This document shows positions 1-11,861 of a DNA stretch of 12,166 bases, one piece after another. How positions within the stretch are numbered: position 1 is the stretch's first letter; every line of letters starts with the position of its first letter. Under the pieces are notes generated by a model. The model was not told where the DNA came from. It saw only the letters and a program-made list of their open reading frames with translations, and did no database searches. The stretch lies in the UHGV virus genome UHGV-0286708; one strand, given 5' to 3'. The translations under genes were made by a program, and so were the position numbers. The DNA comes from a virus.

Positions 1-371
1 GCGCAGACGATGACGTCACTGCCCGGCTGTATGCGCGAGGTTACCGACTGCGGCCTGAGTTTTTTAAATGGCGGAAAATCGTGTTGAGGCCAACGCCCAT
101 AATGCGGGCGGTTGCCCGGCATCCAACGCCATTCATGGCCATATCAATGATTTTCTGGTGCGTACCGGGTTGAGAAGCGGTGTAACTGAACTGCAGTTGC
201 CATGTTTTACGGCAGTGAGAGCAGAGATAGCGCTGATGTCCGGCAGTGCTTTTGCCGTTACGCACCACCCCGTCAGTAGCTGAACAGGAGGGACAACTGA
301 TAGAAATAGAAGCCACTGGAGAACCTCAAAAACACCATCATACACTAAATCAGTAAGTTGGTATCATCACC
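1..371 (-). mobile_element. IS1 insertion sequence, partial (cut by window start); left inverted repeat ends near 371
   Basis: Reverse complement of 357-371 reads GGTGATGATACCAAC, close to the IS1 terminal inverted repeat GGTGATGCTGCCAAC. The insA ORF lies just inside it, and insB would lie beyond the window start. Confidence 0.9.
41..316 (-). CDS. insA: IS1 InsA (transposition regulator, zinc-finger/HTH protein), 91 aa
   Basis: Translation [43 protein letters not shown]... is the recognisable IS1 InsA sequence with its CxxC...CxxC motif. Confidence 0.9.
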
Positions 372-445
372 TCAAAGCCATTAGGTTCGATTTGAATATA
401 AACAATTTTCATTAAACTGATATTTATCACCAAATTCCGAGCCAA

Positions 446-564: not shown

Positions 565-1197
565 GTGAAAATATATTACGCATTAAAAAGAATAGCGTAT
601 ATTGCAGGTGCTTTATCTATTGGTTGCGGCTCACTACCAATGATTTTCAGCAAAACACCCGCTCTTCAATACTGGGTGCTCGGGGCTTTTTTAATTTTCA
701 TTGGGTATTGCGTATCAAAGCTTGAGTTCGATAAGTCTAAATACATCAAGTACCTAAATGAAAAGAACGATGGGATTTATATTTATTATGCAAAATTTGG
801 TGGCGAAGAGCACGAAATAAAAATCAACACAAAAAACAAAACAATCGAACTAAAGTCAGGGAAAAATTCCGCCACACTAAACTTTGATAACATCAAATCA
901 TGGAGATATAACGTATCTGGCATTAGCAAGGTTAATGTCATTGGTTCCACTAACAGCGTAATGGGTAATTTCACAGCTTTATCTCAAGCCAGTGCAATCA
1001 ACAACCAAGCAGGGTACAGCGCGTGGGATAATAATGGATTCTTTATTCACACAGATGCATTGGCAAATCCTGTCTGGCATATAAAGATAATACCAAAAGA
1101 TGTCGCAATAAACCTTAAGTCTGACAAGTTTTGGAAAAGTGTCGCTGGCGAATGCGAAGTCTGGATGAACGTAATGAACCGAGCCATTAATAAATAG
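565..1197 (+). CDS. Hypothetical membrane-anchored protein, 210 aa (two N-terminal hydrophobic helices, then a soluble domain); AT-rich cargo
   Basis: Intact ORF with GTG start and GGAG 8 nt upstream. Hydrophobic stretches [19 protein letters not shown] and [15 protein letters not shown]. Codon usage is AT-rich, unlike the neighbouring IS1 and phage genes. I recognise no family. Confidence 0.55.
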
Positions 1198-1441: not shown

Positions 1442-1497
1442 TGGAGCACCTCAAAAACACCATCATACACTAAATCAGTAAGTTGGCAGCATCACCA
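1207..1497 (-). mobile_element. IS1 remnant (about 290 bp: left inverted repeat plus partial insA), same orientation as the first copy
   Basis: Reverse complement of 1483-1497 is GGTGATGCTGCCAAC, the IS1 terminal inverted repeat. Homology to the first copy runs from about 1207 to 1497 with many substitutions, so it is a different IS1 isoform, truncated. Confidence 0.8.
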
Positions 1498-1541
1498 CGG
1501 CTGCGTTACCTCAATTTTTACACGCCTTAGGTGATTGATTT

Positions 1542-2294
1542 ATGGATTATTTTAGTATTGACTTTTTTATCGGTGAGCTCAAAGTAAATTTTAGTCATAA
1601 GGTTGGTAGGCTTTCGACCGCACTACGGGCAGCTAATTGGCAAATCGATATTAGATATTTGAATGGTAATGACCCCGATATTGGTAAAGAAGTGGATAGT
1701 CTTGAGAAAAACGCATTTAAACGAGTGGAGTTTGAGAGGAAGCAGTATCGGATGCTTTGTGATGATGAAGATCCAATTCAGGAAAGGGTCAATAAGATGA
1801 TCTATTTGTCGGCAATAAACTGGTATTTAGGATTATGTATCGTAGCGTCAGATTGGCGTGATGGTGTGAAGATGTTACTTAAATCTACCGAGCTTCTTGA
1901 TATGTGTCATGGCATTATTGAACATGAAATATGGCAACAGATAGAAACAGAAAAAAAAGGACGTGCTATTAATGGGGGTACAGCAAAAGCTGCTATTTAT
2001 GCTCCTCTAAAAGCTGAAATTATTCGTTTGTTGTATTGCAAGAGACCTATAGATGGTTGGAAAAGCAAGAAGGAGGCTTTGAGGGCTATTGATGAAGATA
2101 TATACAAATTTATTCAAAAACATGGCTATCCCGTTTCTCCTGACGCCAAAAAAGAGGGGGAGGCAGAACTTTATTCACGAATCCCCCGCCTGATTGAAGA
2201 TTGGTCAAGAGATGATGCAATAATTAAGGTTGTTTTTGGCTCAACAGTTAAGCACAAAAATAGCGCCCCTAAGGACGCAGAACAGAATAGATAG
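1542..2294 (+). CDS. Hypothetical protein, 250 aa, AT-rich cargo ORF convergent with the adjacent integrase
   Basis: Intact 250-aa ORF with no obvious transmembrane segment. It sits immediately 3' of the P4-type integrase gene, a classic cargo position in integrative islands. I recognise no family. Confidence 0.55.
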   Translation: MDYFSIDFFIGELKVNFSHKVGRLSTALRAANWQIDIRYLNGNDPDIGKEVDSLEKNAFKRVEFERKQYRMLCDDEDPIQERVNKMIYLSAINWYLGLCIVASDWRDGVKMLLKSTELLDMCHGIIEHEIWQQIETEKKGRAINGGTAKAAIYAPLKAEIIRLLYCKRPIDGWKSKKEALRAIDEDIYKFIQKHGYPVSPDAKKEGEAELYSRIPRLIEDWSRDDAIIKVVFGSTVKHKNSAPKDAEQNR

Positions 2295-2304
2295 ATTGTA
2301 TTTA

Positions 2305-2330
2305 ATGCATGATCCTATTGCATATTTTTT
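2305..2330 (+). terminator. Weak candidate intrinsic terminator between the convergent 250-aa ORF and integrase
   Basis: Short stem ATGCA(2305-2309)/TGCAT(2319-2323) followed by ATTTTTT (2324-2330). The stem is only 5 bp. Confidence 0.25.
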
Positions 2331-2335
2331 GACGG

Positions 2336-3577
2336 TTAACCGACAAGGAGTAGTCCATGACTACCATTGTCTATTATGTTACCGTCATGTGCTGCTTTTA
2401 TAAAATCAGCCCACCATTGCATCATAGGGCGGCGTTGCTCAAGATAATCACTGCGGTTATATGCGCGACGTACTTCATTCTTGTCCACATGAGCCAATGC
2501 AGCCTCAATGACATCAGGCGGAAACCCTTGCTCATTGAGTGCCGTACTAGCGATAGAACGTAAACCGTGTGATACGAGTACGCCTCCTAAACCTGCACGC
2601 TTGAGTGCTGCATTCACTGTTTGGCTGTTCATTGGTTGGGTTGGTTTGATGCGACTGGGAAAGATAAATTCTCGGCCACCACTGAGTGACTTCATCATTT
2701 CCAGAATAGAGAGAGCCTCATCGGATAGTGGAATCGTATGGTCCCGGTTCATCTTCATTCGAGCTGCAGGAATTTTCCATTCGTTAGCATCAAAATCGAT
2801 CTCATCCCATCGAGCTTCAGCAGCTTCGGCAGGGCGGGTAATGGTGAGGAGTTGCCACATGAACAGGCACCTTGTGGACAAGCTGATACTTGCCGTACGC
2901 ATAGTCTGCATTAGCTGTGGAAGTTGATCCGGGCGGATGCTTGGCATGTTTTTCTTTTGCGGTTTCTCGAATGCTTTCCCGATGTTTACGCTGGGAACCG
3001 CATCAATCAAGCCCGTGTTCTGCGCATAAATCATGACTTCGTTAATACGCTGACAAAGACGGCGAACAGTCTCTAATGCACCTCTGGCCTGAACCGGCTG
3101 AACGGCTTTAACCAGAGTATGAGCCTTAATCTCAGTGACACTGATATCACCGATTGTTGGGAAAACATCTCTCTCAAGTGAGCGCCATATATCGTCGGCA
3201 TAGTCCTCTGTTACGCTGGCTTTCTTCACATTCCACCAACGCTCAGCAACTAACAGGAAAGTGTTGGTTTTAGCCTCTTGAGAATTTCTCACCAGTTCTT
3301 TCTGATGTTCCTGAGGATCAATGTCTTTCGCCAATAAAACTTTAGATTCGGCTCTGAGTTTACGTGCATCAGAAAGCGAGACGGCAGGGTAGGCCCCAAA
3401 GCTCTGTTTGGTTCGCTGCTTGGTCAGAGGCCGATAGTAACGGAATTGCCAGAGCTTACTGCCGCTGGACTTGATTAACAGAGTAAGCCCGTCACCATCA
3501 TACAGCTGGTAATCGGCATCTTTAGGTTTGGCGGCTTTGATTTCCGTATCGGTTAACGGCTTGGTTTTTCTTGCCAT
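2336..3577 (-). CDS. intA: P4/CP4-57-type tyrosine integrase (IntA/SlpA-like), about 413 aa
   Basis: Probable start is MARKTKPLTDTEIKAAKPKDADYQLYDGDGL... at 3577, with GGAG upstream; the listed ORF extends 11 codons further 5'. It has the integrase arm-binding N-terminus and C-terminal catalytic motifs (RPAEAAEARWDEIDF, HGLRSIAST, Y in RRAYNRSDY). It lies about 205 bp downstream of a tmRNA 3'-end copy in the same orientation, as in the E. coli ssrA-intA arrangement. Confidence 0.9.
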   Translation of the reverse strand: MARKTKPLTDTEIKAAKPKDADYQLYDGDGLTLLIKSSGSKLWQFRYYRPLTKQRTKQSFGAYPAVSLSDARKLRAESKVLLAKDIDPQEHQKELVRNSQEAKTNTFLLVAERWWNVKKASVTEDYADDIWRSLERDVFPTIGDISVTEIKAHTLVKAVQPVQARGALETVRRLCQRINEVMIYAQNTGLIDAVPSVNIGKAFEKPQKKNMPSIRPDQLPQLMQTMRTASISLSTRCLFMWQLLTITRPAEAAEARWDEIDFDANEWKIPAARMKMNRDHTIPLSDEALSILEMMKSLSGGREFIFPSRIKPTQPMNSQTVNAALKRAGLGGVLVSHGLRSIASTALNEQGFPPDVIEAALAHVDKNEVRRAYNRSDYLEQRRPMMQWWADFIKAAHDGNIIDNGSHGLLLVG

Positions 3578-3597
3578 GGGGAGTCTCCATGCGTTTA

Positions 3598-3633
3598 GGC
3601 CCAACGAAAACAATAGAACTTTTCGTTGGGCCT
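3598..3633. promoter_or_regulatory. Perfect 13-bp inverted repeat (hairpin) about 20 nt upstream of the integrase start
   Basis: GGCCCAACGAAAA (3598-3610) and TTTTCGTTGGGCC (3621-3633) are exact reverse complements with a 10-nt loop. Confidence 0.4.
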
Positions 3634-3704
3634 ATCAATGGGCCTAAAAGGTTCGGATTTAATTAGTTCTCTTCAGACTTCGCGGGACAAATTGAGGGCA
3701 CAAA

Positions 3705-3737
3705 AAAGCCCGCAGGGCTTGTGCCATGCGGGCTTTT
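3705..3737 (-). terminator. Intrinsic (bidirectional-type) terminator hairpin downstream of the tmRNA 3'-end copy
   Basis: AAAAGCCCGCA ... TGCGGGCTTTT forms a GC-rich 11-bp stem flanked by an A-run and a T-run. Position fits the native terminator of ssrA. Confidence 0.6.
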
Positions 3738-3780
3738 AGGACTTCATCGGATGACTCTGGTAATCACCGATGGAGAATTT

Positions 3781-3825
3781 TGGTGGAGCTGGCGGGAGTT
3801 GAACCCGCGTCCGAAATTCCTACAT
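3781..3825 (-). other. ssrA: About 45-nt copy of the tmRNA (ssrA) 3' end: attachment-site repeat separating the two integrated elements; not an intact RNA gene
   Basis: Reverse complement reads ATGTAGGAATTTCGGACGCGGGTTCAACTCCCGCCAGCTCCACCA, the acceptor/T-arm end of enterobacterial tmRNA including CCA. Sequence beyond 3825 is AT-rich and unrelated to tmRNA, so only the 3' segment is present. Confidence 0.75.
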
Positions 3826-3938
3826 ACTATTTTTACTGTAATAAAAACAGTGAATTACGTTTAAAAACAGTCCTTTAGTGTTATTTGCTGTTTATACGTT
3901 TTATGCATTTTTAATGCTCTGCCGCCACTTTGTCGCCA

Positions 3939-4997
3939 TTAAATGCGCTGGTCATTTGATATAGGTAAAATGCTTGTAAAGAGTTTTTCGTCATATAGTG
4001 CGTACTCAGGTATGTAATCACCATTGCTTTTATCTGTTTGGAAGATAGAGGGGTCCTTGTCGATTAAAACATATAACTCAATGAGAATATTTCTTAGTCC
4101 CCAAAGCATTTGCTTTAGTTGTTTTTCATCATTGAATGAGATGCTTATGGCTTCCGTATCTGGTTTTGGATGTTCAGGAATTATTGAGAAAAGATGTTCT
4201 TGGTATTTATAATCAATTCCAAGTAGTCTGCAAAGTTGAATTATGTTTGATTCTATGAGTTGTAGGCTAACTAATTGGTTGTCATGATTTTTGTTGTTGG
4301 ACTTAAGCGATTTGTTTATGTTGTTATAATGATTTGTTGTTTTTCGAATAAAATCTTCTTCGACAGCGGTGCTATAGCCATTATCAATGGAAGATGATTT
4401 GAAAATATTTTTATAAAGAGTGTACGGATGAACTACAGATAGTTCAATACTGTCTATATCACTAGTTTCTTTATTTAATCTTGATAATTTAAATGTTGGT
4501 AGTGTTTGGAATATATCAGCGAAGCTTTTCAGATGTGAGTAATATGAATCAGTGGTGTTTTTTTCAATAACAAGATTGATTTGCTTTTGTGTTTTTTCTA
4601 TTTGGTTCTCTGTTTGTGTGGTTCTATGTATATTGTTGACGATTGCTGCAAGAGGTACCGAAGAAGCTAAAATAAATAATGGCAATTTAGAGATGTCAAG
4701 AAAGTGATTAAAACCGTCTGATGTGAAATTTAAATCGTGGCCTTTCCAAGCCCAGAGGCCATACAAAACAAACATTTTTAACGGTACGATAATAGATGCT
4801 ATGAATAATGGTTGTTTTAATAGATTTTTCTCATTTAGTTTAAGCCAATTGAAGCAATAGAACATAAGTATCAATCCAAGTATATAAGCTACACTAAAGA
4901 AGATAAAAACTCTTGGACGATTAGTGTATATCAATGCTAAGGCAATTAAGATAGTAATGATTGCGTAGGTAATGATTAATGTGAGCTTTTTTTTCAT
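3939..4997 (-). CDS. Hypothetical membrane protein (about 352 aa from MKKKL start; 366 aa if the upstream ATG at 5039 is used), N-terminal 3-4 transmembrane helices plus C-terminal soluble domain; AT-rich cargo at the prophage edge
   Basis: Intact ORF. Hydrophobic helices LTLIITYAIITILIALALIY, VFIFFSVAYILGLILMFYCF, PLFIASIIVPLKMFVLYGLWAW and LPLFILASSVPLAAIV. The start at 4997 lies 4 nt after the int stop codon, on the same strand as cI and int. Strongly AT-rich. I recognise no family. Confidence 0.6.
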   Translation of the reverse strand: MKKKLTLIITYAIITILIALALIYTNRPRVFIFFSVAYILGLILMFYCFNWLKLNEKNLLKQPLFIASIIVPLKMFVLYGLWAWKGHDLNFTSDGFNHFLDISKLPLFILASSVPLAAIVNNIHRTTQTENQIEKTQKQINLVIEKNTTDSYYSHLKSFADIFQTLPTFKLSRLNKETSDIDSIELSVVHPYTLYKNIFKSSSIDNGYSTAVEEDFIRKTTNHYNNINKSLKSNNKNHDNQLVSLQLIESNIIQLCRLLGIDYKYQEHLFSIIPEHPKPDTEAISISFNDEKQLKQMLWGLRNILIELYVLIDKDPSIFQTDKSNGDYIPEYALYDEKLFTSILPISNDQRI

Positions 4998-5001
4998 TCT
5001 A

Positions 5002-6018
5002 TTAAACCAAATTATGTAAAGGATTTTTTGTAACAGCATCTTCTAGATGGTCTGGAGAAAAGTGTGCGTAAACCATCGTCATTTTTATATCGGCATGGCC
5101 CAATATTTCTTTAAGGACAAGAATATTCCCGCCATTCATCATAAAATGACTGGCGAATGTATGACGCAGCACGTGGGTGCATTGGCCCTCTGGTAACTCG
5201 ATGCCTGCTCGCTTTACTGCTCGTTCAAAGGCTTTTCTGCACGGTGTGAATAGTTTCCCTCTGTTCTTGGGGAGTTCATCATACAGATTTTGAGATATCG
5301 GCACGGTACGATTTTTCTTACCTTTTGTCTTGGTATAGGTGATCCGGTATTTTGATAACTGATGGCCCTGCAAGTTTTCTGCTTCACTCCATCGCGCACC
5401 AGTAGCTAGGCATATTTTTGCAATCATTAGTAGGCTGGTGTTTTGAGATTCGGCGCAGGCATTAAGCAGGCGTTTGATTTCGTCCGTGGAAAGAAAAGCC
5501 AATTCACCTTCAGCAATTTTGAAGGTTGGAAGCCCTGCCAGCGGGTTTGGTGCGGACCAGTGCCCTAGTTTTTTCAATGTACCGAACACCGATGACAGGT
5601 TACGCTGCTCAAGATTAACTGTGCGAGGTTTAACGGGTGACATGAACGAGCCGTCTTCATTTTGGACCTCCCCCTTTAATCTGGCTTCCCGATATTTTGT
5701 GAAATCACCTGCTGTCAGCTCAGAGGCGATGGGATCGCCTAGACCATTACAGATAATTCTAAGTTTCGCCATCAGGCGTTTGGGGTCTGCGAGTGTTTGA
5801 CCATATAGGGAATACCACTGCTCAATCACTTCTGATAATCGCCGCCGATCTTCCTTCTCACCAAGCCATGGCTTTTTGTTTACTTCGTCCATGGTGAAGC
5901 TTTCAAATGCAATGGCTTCGCCTTTGGTAGCAAATTGCTTACGCACGCGCTTACCATTGCGTCCATTGGGATAGCACTCACACAACCATTTTCCGTTCGG
6001 CTGTTTTCTGATGGTCAT
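5002..6018 (-). CDS. int: P2/186-family phage integrase (tyrosine recombinase), 338 aa
   Basis: N-terminus ...PNGKWLCECYPNGRNGKRVRKQF... and C-terminal motifs (LATGARWSEA, HVLRHTFASHFMMNGGNILVLKEILGH, MVYAHF) are typical of P2-type Int. Its start is 3 nt after the cI stop. Confidence 0.9.
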   Translation of the reverse strand: MTIRKQPNGKWLCECYPNGRNGKRVRKQFATKGEAIAFESFTMDEVNKKPWLGEKEDRRRLSEVIEQWYSLYGQTLADPKRLMAKLRIICNGLGDPIASELTAGDFTKYREARLKGEVQNEDGSFMSPVKPRTVNLEQRNLSSVFGTLKKLGHWSAPNPLAGLPTFKIAEGELAFLSTDEIKRLLNACAESQNTSLLMIAKICLATGARWSEAENLQGHQLSKYRITYTKTKGKKNRTVPISQNLYDELPKNRGKLFTPCRKAFERAVKRAGIELPEGQCTHVLRHTFASHFMMNGGNILVLKEILGHADIKMTMVYAHFSPDHLEDAVTKNPLHNLV

Positions 6019-6021
6019 AAG

Positions 6022-6660
6022 TTAGAGGTTCTTGATTACTTTGACTGCACGTCCTACGACTTCCACATCATCTACAGAACATTCAAATGAAGTGTCATCT
6101 TGGTTAACTACTATTTTGTTTCCGGGTATGCGCGCAATTTTGACGATGCTTTTAACTCCGTCCATATCGACTAACCAGAAGCCATTACTGACTTGTTTAA
6201 CGGACGTATCCACTACAAAGCTATTATTAGCTGTTTTAACAAATAAAGCGTTGGATGAGTCACCATCGAGCAGGCTGCTATCAAGAAGAATTTCATCACT
6301 TGCCTGCAGTTCGCCGTTCTTCAGTTCAACACGTTTGATGCTAGGAGCAACGATCTTAGAAAGTGGTCTTACAGTGACGGGAGGTTCATTTTTGAGATTT
6401 GTTTCTTCGTTCTCACACGCATACATATCTCCTTGACCAGTAGCCAGCCATAGAAGGGAAACTCCTGTTTCAAGGGCACATTGAATTACCCATTCGGCAG
6501 GAAAGCTATCCCTTAAGTATCTGTTAGCCATAGTGCTTTTGGATACCTCCAGATGTTCGCAGAGCTGCTGTCGTGAACTGAAGTTGTAAGCCTTAATAAG
6601 CCTGTTAATTGCATCGCGCCCACCACTATCATTTCCCGCCTTGATCAAACTCATAATCAA
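6022..6660 (-). CDS. cI: Phage CI-type immunity repressor (186-like), about 210 aa
   Basis: N-terminal HTH region ...LCEHLEVSKSTMANRYLRDSFPAEWVIQCALETGVSLLWLATGQG is typical of CI-type repressors, with a C-terminal oligomerisation-type domain. It is divergent from the apl/cII operon and tightly coupled to int. Confidence 0.8.
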   Translation of the reverse strand: MIMSLIKAGNDSGGRDAINRLIKAYNFSSRQQLCEHLEVSKSTMANRYLRDSFPAEWVIQCALETGVSLLWLATGQGDMYACENEETNLKNEPPVTVRPLSKIVAPSIKRVELKNGELQASDEILLDSSLLDGDSSNALFVKTANNSFVVDTSVKQVSNGFWLVDMDGVKSIVKIARIPGNKIVVNQDDTSFECSVDDVEVVGRAVKVIKNL

Positions 6661-6770: not shown

Positions 6771-7013
6771 ATGAGTACTGATATTTCAATTCGTGTACCA
6801 AAAGAGATGGCTACGCCTGCAGAGTTCGCGGAATGGGAAGGTATCTCCCGCGGCTCCGTGTATCAAAAAATTCACCATGGTCAGCTTGCTAAATACATGG
6901 TCAAGAAAGAAAAAAACAAAGGCCGCGTAAGCCTGCGTTATTTAATGTACAAAACCGATCAGGTCCGTGAATCCCTCGGTCATTCCAACTTCCGCGTCAT
7001 TGTTGGTAAGTAA
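6771..7013 (+). CDS. Apl/Cox-like small DNA-binding protein (excisionase/transcriptional regulator), 80 aa
   Basis: First gene of the rightward operon, opposite cI. Small basic protein with an HTH-like segment (FAEWEGISRGSVYQKIHHGQL). The call is positional, by analogy with 186 apl and P2 cox. Confidence 0.55.
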   Translation: MSTDISIRVPKEMATPAEFAEWEGISRGSVYQKIHHGQLAKYMVKKEKNKGRVSLRYLMYKTDQVRESLGHSNFRVIVGK

Positions 7014-7045: not shown

Positions 7046-7555
7046 ATGTTTGATTATAAGATTTCCAAACACCCGCATTTTGATGAAGCCTGTAGAGCTT
7101 TTGCACTTCGTCACAATATGGCGAAGCTGGCAGAACGTGCAGGAATGAATGTCCAGACTCTGCGAAACAAACTCAACCCAGATCAACCGCATCAGCTCAA
7201 TGCGCCAGAAATCTGGCTGCTTACCGATCTGACTGAAGATTCAACGCTGATAGATGGTTTTCTGGCACAGATTCACTGCCTGCCATGTGTACCGATTAAT
7301 GAGGTAGCAAAAGAGAAACTGCCGCATTACGTCATGAGTGCAACCGCAGAGATCGGGCGTGTTGCTGCAGGTGCGGTATCTGGCAATGTAAAAACCAGTG
7401 CAGGTCGTCGTGATGCTATCAGCAGCATTAACTCTGTAACACGACTGATGGCGCTGGCTGCTGTTTCATTGCAGGCCCGTTTACAGGCTAACCCGGCGAT
7501 GGCGAGTGCAGTTGATACCATGACTGGCCTTGGTGCTTCATTCGGTTTGCTGTGA
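7046..7555 (+). CDS. cII: Phage CII-like regulatory protein (186 CII family), 169 aa
   Basis: Same length class as coliphage 186 CII. HTH segment HNMAKLAERAGMNVQTLRNKLNP, position immediately after apl, and GGGG-containing RBS upstream. Confidence 0.75.
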   Translation: MFDYKISKHPHFDEACRAFALRHNMAKLAERAGMNVQTLRNKLNPDQPHQLNAPEIWLLTDLTEDSTLIDGFLAQIHCLPCVPINEVAKEKLPHYVMSATAEIGRVAAGAVSGNVKTSAGRRDAISSINSVTRLMALAAVSLQARLQANPAMASAVDTMTGLGASFGLL

Positions 7556-8369: not shown

Positions 8370-8596
8370 TGGCTGATGCAATGGATCTCGTACAGCAGCG
8401 CGTTGAAGAAGAACGCCAGCGTCATATCCGTACTGCCCGTGCCAAAACGCCGGGCGTGTCCCGCGTGCTTTGCATTGAGTGTGAAGCGCCAATTCCGCCA
8501 GCACGCCGCCGTGCCATTCCGGGTGTGCAGCTTTGCATTACCTGTCAGGAAATCGCAGAGCTGAAAGGCAAACATTACAACGGAGGTGCTGTATGA
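8369..8596 (+). CDS. TraR/DksA-family C4 zinc-finger protein, 75 aa
   Basis: CIECEAPIP...CITCQ gives the four-cysteine CxxC-N17-CxxC arrangement typical of phage TraR-like proteins. AGGAG RBS upstream. Confidence 0.75.
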   Translation: MADAMDLVQQRVEEERQRHIRTARAKTPGVSRVLCIECEAPIPPARRRAIPGVQLCITCQEIAELKGKHYNGGAV

Positions 8597-9450
8597 GCAC
8601 CATCCTGAAATGGGCGGGAAATAAAACCGCCATTATGTCCGAACTGAAAAAGCATCTTCCTGCTGGCCCGCGACTGGTTGAACCTTTCGCGGGTTCCTGT
8701 GCAGTGATGATGGAGACGGAGTACCCCAGCTATCTTGTTGCGGATATTAATCCTGATTTAATCAACCTCTATAAAAAGGTTGCTGCTGATTGTGAATCAT
8801 TTATATCTCGCGCCAGAGTTTTATTTGAGATCGCAAACAGGGAGGTAGCTTATTACAACATAAGGCAGGAGTTTAATTACTCAACTGAAATTACTGATTT
8901 CATGAAAGCGGTATATTTCCTGTATCTCAATCGTCACGGTTACCGTGGTTTATGTCGCTATAACAAGAGCGGGCATTTCAACATTCCCTACGGTAATTAT
9001 AAAAATCCGTATTTCCCTGAAAAAGAAATTCGCGCATTTGCAGAAAAAGCCCAGCGAGCAACGTTTATCTGCGCCAGCTTTGATGAAACGCTGGCGATGT
9101 TGAAGGCGGGGGATGTGGTGTATTGCGATCCGCCGTATGACGGTACGTTTTCCGGCTATCACACTGATGGTTTCACTGAAGATGACCAGTATCACCTGGC
9201 ATCCGTTCTTGAACATCGGTCATCAGAAGGACATCCGGTCATTGTTTCTAACAGTGACACATCCCTGATCCGTTCGCTGTATCGCAATTTTACTCACCAC
9301 TATATCAAGGTAAAACGCAGCATCGGTGTGGCAGCTGGCGAGGGTAAATCAGCAACAGAAATCATTGCTGTTTCCGGGCCGCGCTGCTGGTTGGGATTTG
9401 ATTATTCGCGTGGCGTGGATAGTTCTGCCGTGTACGGAGTGCGTGCATGA
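8593..9450 (+). CDS. dam: Dam-type N6-adenine DNA methyltransferase, about 285 aa, phage-encoded orphan methylase
   Basis: From [11 protein letters not shown] it parallels E. coli Dam: [39 protein letters not shown] and the catalytic DPPY ([10 protein letters not shown]). ATGA overlap with the TraR-like stop. Confidence 0.9.
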
Positions 9451-11861
9451 GCCATGCTGATATGAACAACTGCAGCGGCTTTAACGAGGCCGCCGCAGCA
9501 TTCTCATGGAACAGCCCGAAAAAGGCTATTAACCCTTATCTGGACCCGGCGGAAGTTGCGCCGGTTTCTGCGCTTTCAAACCTGATCACTCTGTACGCTG
9601 CCGATAACGAGCAGGAACAACTGCGCCGCGAGGCACTGAGTGATCAGGTCTGGGAGCGTTATTTCTTTAATGAATCCCTTGATCCTGTCCAACGCGAAAT
9701 GGAGCAGGATAAGCTCATTAGCCGGGCAAAGCTGGCGCATGAGCAGCAGCGTTTTAATCCGGACATGGTCATACTGGCGGACGTTAAAGCCCAGCCCTCC
9801 CATATCAGCAAGCCGCTGATGCAACGTATTGAATACTTCAGCAGCCTGGGCAGGCCAAAGGCTTATTCCCGCTATTTGCGTGAAACGATTAAGCCATGTC
9901 TGGAACGACTGGAGCATGTACGCGACAGTCAGCTATCCACTTCTTTTCGCTTTATGGCAAGCCATGAAGGGCTGGACGGCCTGCTGATCCTGCCTGAAAT
10001 GAGTCAGGATCAGGTGAAACGCCTGTCTACTCTTGTCGCTGCGCATATGAGCATGTGTCTTGATGCCGCTTGTGGTGATTTGTACGCCACCGATGATGTT
10101 AAGCCAGAAGAAATCCGCAAGACATGGGAAAAGGTGGCAGCAGAAACCCTGCGACTGGATGTCATACCGCCTGCGTTTGAGCAACTCCGCCGGAAAAGAA
10201 ACCGCCGTAAACCCGTACCCTATGAACTCATTCCGGGTTCGCTGGCGCGTATGTTGTGCGCCGACTGGTGGTATCGGAAATTATGGAAGATGCGTTGCGA
10301 ATGGCGGGAAGAGCAGTTGCGTGCTGTTTGCCTGGTCAGCAAAAAAGCATCTCCCTATGTCAGCTATGAAGCCGTGATGCATAAACGTGAGCAGCGCCGT
10401 AAGTCGCTGGAGTTTTTCCGTTCTCATGAACTAGTGAACGAAGACGGCGACACGCTGGATATGGAGGACGTGGTAAACGCCAGTAGTAGCAACCCGGCGC
10501 ATCGCCGCAATGAGATGATGGCATGTGTTAAAGGTCTGGAGCTTATCGCGGAAATGCGCGGTGACTGCGCCGTTTTCTACACCATCACCTGTCCGTCACG
10601 TTTCCATTCCACGCTAAATAACGGCAGGCCCAACCCAACCTGGACAAATGCGACGGTAAGACAAAGCAGTGATTATCTGGTCGGCATGTTTGCTGCATTT
10701 CGTAAGGCGATGTACAAAGCCGGATTGCGCTGGTATGGCGTGCGGGTGGCTGAGCCGCATCATGACGGTACAGTTCACTGGCACCTGTTGTGTTTTATGC
10801 GCAAAAAAGATCGCCGCGCCATTACTGCTTTGTTGCGTAAGTTTGCCATTCGTGAAGACCGCGAGGAGCTGGGTAATAACACAGGACCACGCTTTAAGTC
10901 TGAGCTGATAAACCCGCGCAAAGGTACGCCAACAAGCTACATCGCGAAATACATCAGTAAGAACATTGACGGGCGTGGTCTGGCTGGCGAGATCAGCAAG
11001 GAAACGGGTAAATCCCTGCGTGATAACGCTGAATACGTTAATGCCTGGGCGTCTCTTCATCGTGTTCAGCAATTCCGCTTCTTTGGCATTCCGGGGCGTC
11101 AGGCTTACCGTGAACTGCGATTGCTGGCTGGTCAGGCGGCAAGGCAACAGGGGGACAAAAAAGCAGGTGCGGCGGTACTGGATAACCCACGCCTTGATGC
11201 CATCCTGGCTGCTGCTGATGCTGGTTGTTTTGCCACCTACATCATGAAGCAGGGCGGCGTACTGGTTCCCCGCAAATATCACCTCATCAGAACCGCTTAT
11301 GAAATCAACGAAGAGCCGACCGCCTATGGCGATCACGGCATTCGTATTTATGGCATCTGGTCACCCATTGCAGAGGGCAAGATCTGCACTCATGCAGTGA
11401 AGTGGAAAATGGTTCGTAAGGCCGTTGACGTTCAGGAGGCGGCAGCCGACCAGGGCGCTTGCGCCCCTTGGACTCGTGGCAATAACTGTCCCCTTGCCGA
11501 AAATTTGAACCAACAGGAGAAAGATAAATCAGCTGATGGGGACACCAGAACGGATATTACCCGCATGGATGACAAGGCGTTGCACGATTACCTGCACAGT
11601 ATGAGCAAAAAAGAGTGCCGGGAACTGGCAGCAAGGTTACGCCTGGTGAAACCGAAACGGCGTAAAGACTACAAACAGCGAATTACAGACCATCAGCGAC
11701 TGCAGCTCGTGTATGAGCTGAAGTCCAGAGGATTTGATGGCAGCGAGAAAGAGGTCGATTTACTCCTTCGCGGAGGCAGTATTCCGTCAGGAGCAGGCCT
11801 GCGTATCTTCTATCGGAACCAGCGTTTGCAGGAAGATGATAAGTGGCGGAACCTGTATTAA
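9447..11861 (+). CDS. A: Replication initiation protein gpA (P2/186 gene A, rolling-circle HUH endonuclease), 804 aa
   Basis: Large ORF in the gene-A position, coupled to dam by an ATGA overlap. It has an HUH-like motif ([10 protein letters not shown]) and paired tyrosines ([10 protein letters not shown]), as expected for the gpA nickase. Confidence 0.85.

What the first reader, a model, noticed from the sequence alone, without database searches (positions are those of the whole stretch)
3939..5039. AT-rich membrane-protein cargo gene between the prophage integrase and its att site
In P2/186-type phages int normally sits close to the attachment site. Here a gene of about 1.1 kb for a protein with 3-4 N-terminal transmembrane helices and a roughly 230-aa soluble C-terminal domain lies between int (stop at 5002) and the tmRNA-derived att repeat (3781-3825). 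It is on the same strand as cI and int and starts 4 nt after the int stop (or overlaps it if the ATG at 5039 is used), so it would be transcribed with the lysogenic cI-int message. Its composition is much more AT-rich than the flanking phage core genes, suggesting horizontal acquisition. Lysogen-expressed membrane proteins at prophage edges are commonly superinfection-exclusion or abortive-infection effectors, but I recognise no known family or catalytic motif. This is my best candidate for an undescribed function in the window.
Basis: partly seen in the sequence, partly recalled or inferred. Interest (0 to 1): 0.8.

Follow-up and report, generated by a model that had tools for sequence, protein, structure and literature searches.

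The report
Uncharacterised membrane cargo gene behind prophage integrase
A real, conserved gene for a four-helix inner-membrane protein of unknown function sits as a swappable cassette between the integrase and the attachment site of a Fels-2/186-like E. coli prophage; it belongs to a large unstudied family that occupies known anti-phage "hotspots", so it is a good but untested candidate for a new phage-defence protein.

Summary
Window 3939-4997 (- strand) encodes a 352-aa protein. The start is the ATG at 4997, 4 nt after the int stop, not 5039. The protein has four N-terminal TM helices and a roughly 230-aa soluble domain. GC is 32%, against 43-53% for cI, int and gpA. The gene lies inside a Fels-2-type (P2/186-family) prophage, between int and the displaced ssrA 3' fragment (3781-3825).

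It is not an orphan. A profile search found 941 clusters (at 50% identity), in Enterobacterales and Pseudomonas. None has a Pfam, NCBIfam or PADLOC match, a PDB fold match or a name. PHROG 17460 ("unknown function") matches.

TM3, TM4 and a juxtamembrane helix (H-R-T-x-Q-T...K-N-x-x-D) are nearly invariant. The C-domain is about 17% identical between phages whose integrases are 92% identical. 76 of 80 viral-contig members follow a Fels-2-type int directly. Others lie between cI and int, or in the validated P2 gpA-portal defence hotspot.

The slot is a cassette site. Alternative cargo includes SMEK/REase-like, dCTP-deaminase-like and weakly RES-like genes.

The best reading is a lysogen-expressed, membrane-acting anti-phage protein of a new family. 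This is inferred from context and not demonstrated.

The parts
3939..4997 (-). CDS of the cargo protein, 352 aa (stop at 3939-3941). The alternative upstream ATG at 5039 would give 366 aa and is disfavoured.
   Evidence: Searches show the ORF. Homologue N-termini align to Met-4997, and PGAP uses the same start in KL53. dN/dS is 0.11-0.13. PHROG 17460 matches at E=8e-49.
4842..4985 (-). TM1 (residues 5-25) and TM2 (residues 31-52). This is the variable part of the membrane domain and is absent from many family members.
   Evidence: Hydropathy and the AF2 helices define the segments. Median identity is 23% between phages with 92% identical int. Many profile hits start at profile position about 29-52.
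4518..4823 (-). Conserved core, residues 59-160. It comprises TM3 (63-84), the predicted periplasmic loop, TM4 (104-121, SKLPLFILASSVPLAAIV) and the juxtamembrane helix. Near-invariant residues are H124 R125 T126 Q128 T129 Q132 I133, then K146 N147 D150 H155 K157.
   Evidence: Conservation was measured in 175 and in 126 family members. dN/dS is 0.04-0.06. The conserved residues are biased to one helical face.
3942..4517 (-). Fast-evolving C-terminal soluble domain, residues 161-352. It is a helical bundle with a small beta-sheet and is predicted to be cytoplasmic.
5002..6018 (-). Fels-2-type tyrosine integrase. Its stop codon is 4 nt upstream of the cargo start.
   Evidence: Pfam Int_N plus Phage_integrase. 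It is 93% identical to Fels-2, RE2010 and Cartapus int.
6022..6660 (-). 186-type CI repressor, the first gene of the lysogenic operon cI-int-cargo.
   Evidence: Pfam Phage_CI_repr plus Phage_CI_C. The operon layout matches that annotated for phage 186.
3920..3941 (-). Two tandem arm-type-like Int-binding repeats (TAATGGCGACA and AAGTGGCGGCA) that overlap and follow the cargo stop codon. This is the left homology breakpoint of the cassette.
   Evidence: They match 9/11 and 10/11 positions of the reverse complement of the 186 arm-site consensus YAYCGCCAYTY, as annotated in NC_001317. The sequence is read, and the same pair follows the gene in L022. Homology with relatives that carry other cargo resumes at 3938-3941. 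Int binding at these repeats is inferred, not tested.
3781..3825 (-). Displaced 3' end of ssrA (tmRNA). It is the attR core of the Fels-2-like prophage and also the junction to the neighbouring CP4-57-like island.
   Evidence: Sequence. Partial Rfam tmRNA match. The same 32-mer follows the slot in 14 related loci. Intact ssrA lies at the far end of the prophage in KL53.
3706..3720 (-). First intrinsic-terminator-like hairpin on the - strand downstream of cI-int-cargo. It is the native terminator downstream of ssrA.
   Evidence: No other - strand terminator-like site was found between 3720 and 6920.

Best explanation
The gene is an accessory (moron) cassette of a Fels-2/186-like temperate phage. 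It is wedged between the int stop codon and the Int arm sites of attP, and is read as the last gene of the lysogenic cI-int message. Its product is an inner-membrane protein. It has four TM helices, with the N-terminus predicted to be cytoplasmic. TM3, TM4 and a polar juxtamembrane helix are nearly invariant, and a fast-evolving soluble domain is predicted to be cytoplasmic.

I think it most likely protects the lysogen against other phages. In this model the variable cytoplasmic domain recognises an infection cue. The conserved TM hairpin and polar helix, probably as an oligomer, then act on the membrane by leak or depolarisation, aborting or blocking the infection. Functionally this would be a single-chain analogue of lambda RexA/RexB. 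It is not a homologue of Rex.

**Shown here:** gene reality, position, cassette behaviour, family size, conservation pattern, hotspot association.
**Inferred:** expression in lysogens, topology, oligomerisation, anti-phage role, and the division into sensor and effector.

My confidence is about 0.5 for an anti-phage role and about 0.3 for the abortive sensor-effector mechanism.
For: **Location in the lysogenic operon**
- It is on the same strand as cI and int, 4 nt after the int stop, with no terminator or good promoter in between.
- In 75 related loci the start usually overlaps or abuts the int stop.
- In Serratia the family gene lies between cI and int, so int transcription from the lysogenic promoters would pass through it.
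- In phage 186 the annotated terminator of the lysogenic operon lies beyond attP.

**It is phage-borne**
- The attP configuration int-gene-att-ogr-D-U is seen in L022.
- KL53 has intact ssrA at the other end of the prophage.

**Hotspot behaviour**
- DNA homology to relatives with other cargo breaks at 3938-3941 and 5008-5021.
- Of 71 informative contigs with int at least 90% identical, 19 carry a family member, 40 carry other genes and 12 carry none.
- Alternative cargo includes a SMEK_N/REase-like protein (PADLOC 2.7e-30, Pfam 3.2e-30), a dCTP-deaminase/dUTPase-like protein with a C-terminal hydrophobic stretch (5.9e-15), and a weakly RES-like family.
- The int-att region is reported as a minor defence hotspot of P2-like phages (PMC13586616).

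**The family also occupies the validated P2 defence hotspot**
- Members lie between gpA and the portal gene in L108 and L111. L111 carries two tandem paralogues. That hotspot is described in PMC9122126.
- Other members lie in an ICE-like island in Dickeya and in small islands in Pseudomonas.

**Modular conservation**
- For phage pairs with int median 92% identical, the core is 57% identical and the C-domain 17%.
- Near-invariant polar residues lie on one face of the post-TM4 helix.
- A 7-residue indel in that helix between clades roughly preserves the helical phase.

**Base rate**
- 6 of 8 randomly chosen unknown-function loci from the P4 hotspot gave phage protection (PMC13586616).
Against: - There are no experimental data on expression, toxicity or phage resistance for any family member.
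- No member matches any PADLOC v2 model. No domain fusion to a known effector or sensor was found in 126 diverse members.
- dN/dS is below 1 in every region (0.04-0.29 in the two comparisons that are not near-identical). The C-domain divergence is therefore old and relaxed, not demonstrably driven by an arms race.
- Charge bias for the topology is modest, so a periplasmic C-domain is not excluded.
- The gene is very AT-rich. It could be silenced by H-NS or prematurely terminated despite the operon layout (only the abstract of the relevant preprint was seen).
- In the same paper only 15-32% of unknown P2 proteins carried a machine-learning defence signal.
Confidence: 0.45

Rival explanations
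1. It is a superinfection-exclusion protein. It sits in the inner membrane and blocks genome entry of incoming phages, as P22 SieA, T4 Imm or HK97 gp15 do, without killing the cell. The variable parts would match the injection machinery or the membrane receptor used by particular phages.
For: It is a lysogen-operon membrane protein at a prophage edge. TM3, the predicted periplasmic loop and TM4 are highly conserved (G95, F99, P106), and could contact a conserved host or phage membrane component. TM1-TM2 are very variable.
Against: The largest variable module is the roughly 190-aa soluble domain, which is predicted to be cytoplasmic. An injection block would be expected to vary mainly on the periplasmic or membrane side. 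The most constrained polar motif is on the predicted cytoplasmic side. There is no similarity to any named Sie protein: only 4 tblastn hits in 50,697 phage records, none to a named gene, and the PHROG match is to a family of unknown function.
Confidence: 0.2
2. It is a lysogenic-conversion or host-fitness factor unrelated to phages. Examples would be a membrane sensor or transporter-like protein, immunity to a pore-forming bacteriocin, or an envelope-stress modulator that benefits the lysogen.
For: The int-att slot is a classical place for conversion genes (general knowledge: gtr and oac genes of Salmonella and Shigella phages). It is a membrane protein with no recognisable defence domain. The best Foldseek PDB hit, not significant, is a pore-forming pyocin (E=0.5).
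Against: There is no Pfam glycosyltransferase, acyltransferase, transporter or immunity-protein match in 27 plus 126 members. The family also occupies the gpA-portal defence hotspot. Its slot neighbours and alternatives carry conflict-system domains.
Confidence: 0.15
3. It is an addiction or toxin-like module. It would be a membrane toxin kept harmless by the lysogenic state, for example by a cI-controlled dose, so that it stabilises the prophage or kills cells that lose it.
For: The membrane core is conserved. The gene is tightly coupled to the cI-int operon. AT-rich mobile cargo is typical of toxin genes.
Against: No partner or antitoxin gene is conserved next to it. It is single in the window and in most loci. 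Where a second gene follows, it is an independent slot cargo (orfY family) or a paralogue. It is frequently replaced or absent in phages with near-identical int.
Confidence: 0.08
4. It has a phage life-cycle function, for example a membrane-located regulator of integration, excision or induction that works with Int or CI.
For: There is a near-obligate association with Fels-2-type int: 76 of 80 viral loci. The junction with int is compatible with translational coupling.
Against: It is dispensable. Isolated relatives such as Cartapus, RE2010, SopEPhi and MLG42, with int 90.5-93.5% identical, carry a different gene or no gene directly after int. 12 of 71 informative contigs have an empty slot. 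Members also sit far from int, in the gpA-portal hotspot and in non-phage islands.
Confidence: 0.05

Closest known systems
Lambda RexA/RexB exclusion system (knowledge of Rex rests on general literature, not on a tool result)
   Same: Both are expressed from the repressor operon of a prophage; here this is inferred from the layout. The membrane part has four TM helices, like RexB. The roughly 230-aa part predicted to be cytoplasmic is comparable in size to RexA. The proposed logic is the same: a cytoplasmic sensor opens or perturbs a membrane module.
Cargo of the defence hotspots of P2-like phages (old/tin locus between gpA and portal; the minor int-att hotspot) - Rousset et al. 2022, PMC9122126; PMC13586616
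   Same: It occupies the int-att hotspot, and family members also occupy the gpA-portal hotspot. It behaves as a swappable, AT-rich cassette with fixed breakpoints.
   Different: It matches none of the systems catalogued there or in PADLOC v2. It has not been tested for defence.
PHROG 17460 (phage protein family of unknown function)
   Same: HMM match at E=8e-49 over residues 46-275 of the 366-aa translation. This is the same family.
   Different: The PHROG carries no functional annotation, so membership adds no mechanism.
Phage 186 orf69 (the gene in the same slot of the type phage)
   Same: Same position, between int and attP inside the lysogenic operon.
   Different: orf69 is 83 aa and the 186 record gives it no function. 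Phage 186 gave no tblastn hit to the cargo protein; no direct pairwise comparison with orf69 was run.
Membrane effectors of abortive-infection systems (CBASS/Pycsar/retron TM effectors, Kiwa KwaA)
   Same: They are small multi-TM inner-membrane modules thought to disrupt the membrane on infection (view cited in PMC9122126).
   Different: Those effectors work with separate sensor or signal-producing enzymes. Here no partner is conserved, and no PADLOC model of these effectors matches.

Membership tests
Int-att accessory hotspot cargo of P2/186-like prophages | Lies inside the element, between int and the att core | tested here: met
   Window order is cI-int-ORF-ssrA fragment. The attP form is seen in L022. 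KL53 has intact ssrA at the far end of the prophage.
Int-att accessory hotspot cargo of P2/186-like prophages | Content varies between phages whose flanking core genes are nearly identical, with fixed breakpoints | tested here: met
   Breakpoints are at 3938-3941 and 5008-5021. Of 71 informative contigs, 19 carry the family, 40 carry other genes and 12 are empty. In E. coli genomes at least four cargo types occur among the 233 genomes with this int.
PHROG 17460 | Significant match to the family HMM | tested here: met
   E=8e-49, 168 bits.
Known or candidate anti-phage systems (PADLOC-DB v2.0.0, 5027 models) | Match to a system protein HMM | tested here: not met
   No hits for the window protein at E<=0.1. 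Scanning all 27 sequences of alignment A1 gave only chance-level hits (best E=0.0015).
Anti-phage defence gene (functional class) | Reduces phage plating or spread when expressed | not testable with these tools
   This needs plaque and liquid-infection assays.
Lambda RexAB | Sequence or fold homology to RexA or RexB | tested here: not met
Lambda RexAB | Two-component: a separate sensor (RexA) and channel (RexB) | tested here: not met
   It is a single ORF, and no partner is conserved in the loci examined.
Lambda RexAB | Co-transcribed with the repressor in the lysogen | tested here: inconclusive
   The layout, the lack of terminators and the junction with int fit this. No transcript data are available.
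Superinfection-exclusion membrane proteins (P22 SieA/SieB, T4 Imm, HK97 gp15) | Homology to a described Sie protein | tested here: not met
   The only PHROG match is a family of unknown function. There are no Pfam hits and only 4 unannotated tblastn hits in phage records.
Superinfection-exclusion membrane proteins | Blocks phage DNA entry without cell death | not testable with these tools
   This needs DNA-entry and survival assays.
O-antigen/serotype-conversion genes typical of int-att slots (GtrABC, Oac) | GtrA-like flippase, glycosyltransferase or acyltransferase domain | tested here: not met
   No such Pfam or NCBIfam match in the window protein or in 153 scanned family sequences.

The most novel reading that the evidence does not exclude
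The gene is a member of a new, widespread family of single-protein, membrane-anchored immune sensor-effectors. The family has 941 clusters at 50% identity, in Enterobacterales and Pseudomonas. It would have a previously unseen soluble fold and an invariant membrane-interface motif (H-R-T-x-Q-T...K-N-x-x-D). It is the second most common cargo of the lysogenic cI-int operon of Fels-2-like phages. In this reading the conserved TM hairpin and polar helix form a new kind of gated pore or membrane-interface catalytic site. The exchangeable C-domain sets which phages are recognised.
Probability: 0.3. Interest if true: 0.7.

Novelty: new variant of a known kind. Interest (0 to 1): 0.55.

Why it matters
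If the family is protective, it adds a compact one-gene defence module with a new fold and a new conserved membrane motif. It would also explain what much of the third (int-att / cI-int) hotspot of P2-like prophages is for. That hotspot has so far been catalogued mainly through the few systems that databases recognise.

The natural allele series is useful: the core is conserved while the C-domain is about 17% identical, next to near-identical integrases. This is a ready-made swap experiment for mapping how specificity is encoded.

Because the gene rides in the repressor operon, it would be an analogue of lambda rexAB in a different phage lineage. That is useful for asking how prophages wire immunity genes to the lysogenic state.

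If it is not protective, it is still one of the larger fully unannotated families of phage-borne membrane proteins in enterobacteria.

Tried and rejected
**Family and structure searches that found nothing useful**
- Pfam, NCBIfam and PADLOC scans of the window protein gave nothing. The only NCBIfam hit was RoaM at 16.7 bits against a cutoff of 400.
- Pfam and PADLOC scans of 27 family members, and Pfam scans of 126 more, gave only chance-level hits such as Longin_2 in 2 of 27. No domain fusions were found.
- PDB sequence searches with the single protein and with the profile gave no convincing hit; the best matches were at or just below E=0.04 (a thiamin pyrophosphokinase, then designed helical proteins).
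- Foldseek of the full model against PDB and BFVD gave nothing below E=0.05. AFDB50 was not available.

**Other searches**
- Literature searches by protein accession, PHROG number and topic found no description of the family. The new systems named in PMC13586616 have different architectures.
- The genome-contig scan returned only 5 loci, because the peptide patterns used were narrow.

**Tests with negative or weak results**
- A positive-selection test found none. dN/dS is below 1 in all regions and dS is near saturation.
- A partner gene was considered and rejected. The 397-aa gene after the K. aerogenes allele belongs to the independent orfY slot family. The second ORF in L111 is a paralogue.
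- I considered whether the att fragment belongs only to the neighbouring intA island. This was rejected on the attP-form contig and on KL53, although the fragment is shared by both elements.
- Promoter-like sites inside the ORF are fewer than expected by chance and were ignored.
Full report
**1. What is in the window**

The window is a piece of an E. coli chromosome. It carries the immunity and replication end of a Fels-2/186-like (P2-family) prophage:
- cI at 6022-6660 (-)
- int at 5002-6018 (-)
- apl/Rha-like at 6771-7013
- cII at 7046-7555
- dam at 8533-9450
- gpA at 9447-11861 (Pfam)

The integrase is 93% identical to those of Fels-2, RE2010 and Cartapus. To the left of the finding lies a second, P4/CP4-57-type integrase (2336-3613, -). 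That region (1497-3780) is 100% identical to the intA region of E. coli TW01221. Two integrative elements therefore sit in tandem at ssrA.

**2. The observation**

The ORF 3939-5039 (-) is real. The better start is the ATG at 4997, which gives 352 aa. It lies 4 nt after the int stop codon. All 27 aligned homologues begin there, and RefSeq annotates the 99.7% identical KL53 gene that way, as WP_001748162.1, "hypothetical protein".

Hydropathy gives four TM segments at residues 5-25, 31-52, 63-84 and 104-121. AlphaFold2 with a 27-sequence alignment (pLDDT 80.6) shows the same helices. TM4 continues into a long helix to residue 163, followed by a helical/beta domain at 169-340.

GC is 0.317, against 0.43-0.53 for cI, int and gpA.

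The 45-nt ssrA 3' end is at 3825-3781 on the - strand. Rfam sees it only as a truncated tmRNA, and whole-gene finders see nothing. This is what a displaced att fragment should look like.

Against alleles 72-76% identical, dN/dS is 0.11-0.13, so this is a protein-coding gene under purifying selection.

**3. Does it belong to the prophage?**

Yes.
- In KL53 the intact ssrA lies at the opposite end of the same, internally deleted, prophage. The gene lies just inside the ssrA fragment.
- A metagenomic contig (L022) carries the attP arrangement cI-int-family gene-ssrA-like core-terminator-ogr-gpD-gpU. The gene is therefore part of the circular or packaged phage genome.
- In phage 186 the same slot holds orf69. 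The record places the predicted terminator of the lysogenic operon beyond attP.
- In the window there is no - strand terminator-like site between the one inside the apl-like gene (6934-6920, upstream of the lysogenic operon) and the native terminator downstream of ssrA at 3720-3706. There is also no good - strand promoter between int and the ORF.

Expression with cI-int in the lysogen is therefore a sound inference, but it has not been measured.

**4. A cassette in a hotspot**

Nucleotide homology between the window and relatives that carry different cargo stops at 5008-5021 (the int 3' end). It resumes at 3938-3941 (the ORF stop).

Right at the stop codon are two tandem repeats, TAATGGCGACA and AAGTGGCGGCA. 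They fit the reverse complement of the 186 Int arm-site consensus at 9/11 and 10/11 positions. The same pair follows the gene in L022. The cargo is thus inserted exactly between int and its own P-arm.

Among 5426 complete E. coli genomes, 233 have this int type. Cargo types detected in these genomes by DNA search:

| Cargo in the slot | Genomes |
|---|---|
| This allele (6 at 99.5-99.7%, 6 at about 78%) | 12 |
| A 343-aa gene, a 33%-identical member of the same family | 20 |
| An unrelated 222-aa TM protein | 29 |
| The 401-aa orfY of Cartapus, RE2010 and SopEPhi | 11 |

I also took the 80 IMG/VR contigs with the closest integrases (at least 90% identical). Of these, 71 were informative: 19 carry a family member, 40 carry other ORFs and 12 carry nothing directly after int.

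The other ORFs include:
- the orfY family (about 395-414 aa, weak RES hit at E=0.009);
- a 490-514-aa family;
- a dCTP-deaminase/dUTPase-like protein with a C-terminal hydrophobic stretch (Pfam 5.9e-15);
- a SMEK_N/REase-like protein (PADLOC 2.7e-30).

A 2026 survey lists the int-att interval as a minor defence hotspot of P2-like phages, holding 3% of their recognised systems (PMC13586616). A 2024 preprint describes a third P2 hotspot between a tail gene and cI.

**5. The family**

A word-indexed search found 52 clusters at 90% identity, all Enterobacterales and all "hypothetical". An exhaustive profile search of 1.84 billion representatives found 941 clusters at E<=1e-3 and 455 at E<=1e-10. 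A second profile search added Serratia, Rahnella, Cronobacter, Providencia, Erwinia and Pseudomonas.

No member has a meaningful Pfam, NCBIfam or PADLOC match. PHROG 17460 (unknown function) matches at 8e-49.

Conservation is sharply modular:

| Region (residues) | Conservation |
|---|---|
| 59-160 (core) | Nearly invariant: L59 Q62 F65 P72 W84 G95 F99 P106 H124 R125 T126 Q128 T129 Q132 I133 K146 N147 D150 H155 K157 |
| TM1-TM2 | Barely conserved |
| Beyond about 200 | Barely conserved |

In 2193 pairs of phage loci with integrases at least 88% identical (median 92%), median identities are 57% for the core, 23% for TM1-TM2 and 17% for the C-domain.

dN/dS is lowest in the core (0.04-0.06). It is higher in the C-domain (0.13-0.19) but still well below 1. 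The diversity is therefore old alleles shuffled between phages, with relaxed constraint on the C-domain. It is not demonstrable positive selection.

The conserved polar residues lie on one face of the post-TM4 helix (p of about 0.03 for the first cluster). The clade that contains the window protein has a 7-residue insertion in this helix relative to most members. This roughly keeps the helical phase. Both points fit a continuous stalk with one conserved, probably inter-subunit or partner-binding, face.

Loop charges support a cytoplasmic N-terminus and C-domain, but only moderately:

| Segment | Net charge |
|---|---|
| N-terminus | +1.5 |
| Loop TM3-TM4 | -1.0 |
| After TM4 | +0.5 |

**6. Where else the family sits**

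- 76 of 80 IMG/VR loci found with the family profile have a Fels-2-type int immediately upstream. The start usually overlaps or abuts the int stop, at -4 nt in 23 loci and +2 nt in 15.
- In Providencia the arrangement is the same at a different chromosomal site.
- In Serratia marcescens the gene lies between cI and int. This is the position of the hotspot reported in Vibrio K139-like phages (PMC9122126).
- In two P2-like contigs (L108, L111) the gene lies between the portal gene and gpA. That is the experimentally validated old/tin defence hotspot. L111 carries two tandem paralogues.
- Other members lie in an ICE-like island in Dickeya and in small islands in Pseudomonas.
- In Klebsiella aerogenes the slot stacks a family member and an orfY-family gene, both inside the att.

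**7. Structure comparison**

**8. Interpretation**

The following are shown:
- it is a bona fide, conserved, phage-borne cassette gene;
- it is placed as the last gene of the lysogenic operon;
- it belongs to a large unannotated membrane-protein family;
- it lives in two or three known accessory/defence hotspots of P2-like phages;
- it has an invariant membrane-proximal module and an exchangeable soluble module.

From this I infer an anti-phage role (about 0.5). I prefer a model in which the variable, predicted cytoplasmic domain senses infection and the conserved TM hairpin and polar helix act on the membrane (about 0.3). That would make it a one-protein analogue of lambda RexA/RexB without homology to it.

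Superinfection exclusion at the DNA-entry step is the main rival (0.2). A non-phage conversion function, an addiction module or a life-cycle role are less likely. The reasons are the hotspot company the gene keeps, the lack of a conserved partner, and its dispensability in close relatives.

The base rate from the literature is encouraging but not decisive. Six of 8 unknown P4-hotspot loci protected against phages, but only 15-32% of unknown P2 proteins scored as defence-like by machine learning (PMC13586616).

**9. Verdict**

The functional guess is reasonable but untested.

Novelty: a new, uncharacterised family within a known kind of locus. Interest 0.55.

Noticed in passing
window 2336-3613 (-), with 1542-2294 (+) and 565-1197 (+): A second, P4/CP4-57-type integrase (Arm-DNA-bind_3 + Phage_int_M + Phage_integrase) lies just beyond the ssrA fragment. 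Two elements are therefore integrated in tandem at ssrA and share the att core. This island carries AT-rich genes of unknown function: a 250-aa protein (PHROG 19089, unknown function) and a 210-aa DUF4755 protein.
   Followed up: partly
window 1-376 and 1207-1496: Two direct copies of an IS1 end segment (98% and 93% identical to the IS1B segment in locus L014) flank the AT-rich stretch that holds the DUF4755 ORF. This explains the thousands of multi-copy hits in E. coli genomes.
   Followed up: partly
window 3920-3941 (-); also L022 7012-7040: Two tandem arm-type-like Int-binding repeats start at the cargo stop codon. They mark the exact left breakpoint of the cassette. The cargo is thus inserted between int and the P-arm of attP.
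   Followed up: partly
L029 3527-4732; L030, L032, and many of L114-L192: The commonest alternative cargo of the same slot is another unannotated and itself very diverse family. This is orfY of SopEPhi, about 395-414 aa, soluble, with only a sub-threshold RES-domain hit (E=0.009). It is present in Cartapus, RE2010 and SopEPhi, and is a second candidate for study.
   Followed up: partly
L111 3851-5991; L108 3950-5047: Family members occur in the classical P2 gpA-portal (old/tin) hotspot. In L111 they occur as two tandem paralogues.
   Followed up: partly
L199 6404-9086 (Serratia marcescens): Here the family gene lies between cI and int, not after int. Transcription of int from the lysogenic promoters would therefore have to pass through it.
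   Followed up: no
L007-L009 6001-8535 (Klebsiella aerogenes): The slot can stack two independent cargo genes, a family member plus an orfY-family gene. Both lie inside the att repeat.
   Followed up: partly
L194 (E. coli KL53, record 2597247-2613993): The KL53 copy of this prophage is a remnant of roughly 16.5 kb. gpD and the capsid scaffold gene are truncated and fused across a deletion of most structural genes, and an IS1 lies in the gpA-portal hotspot. The cI-int-cargo end is nevertheless intact.
   Followed up: no
L179 and L188 (IMG/VR), ORF directly after int: A 261-264-aa dCTP-deaminase/dUTPase-like protein with a C-terminal hydrophobic stretch occupies the slot in some relatives. This is reminiscent of nucleotide-depletion defence, but no PADLOC model matched it.
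   Followed up: no
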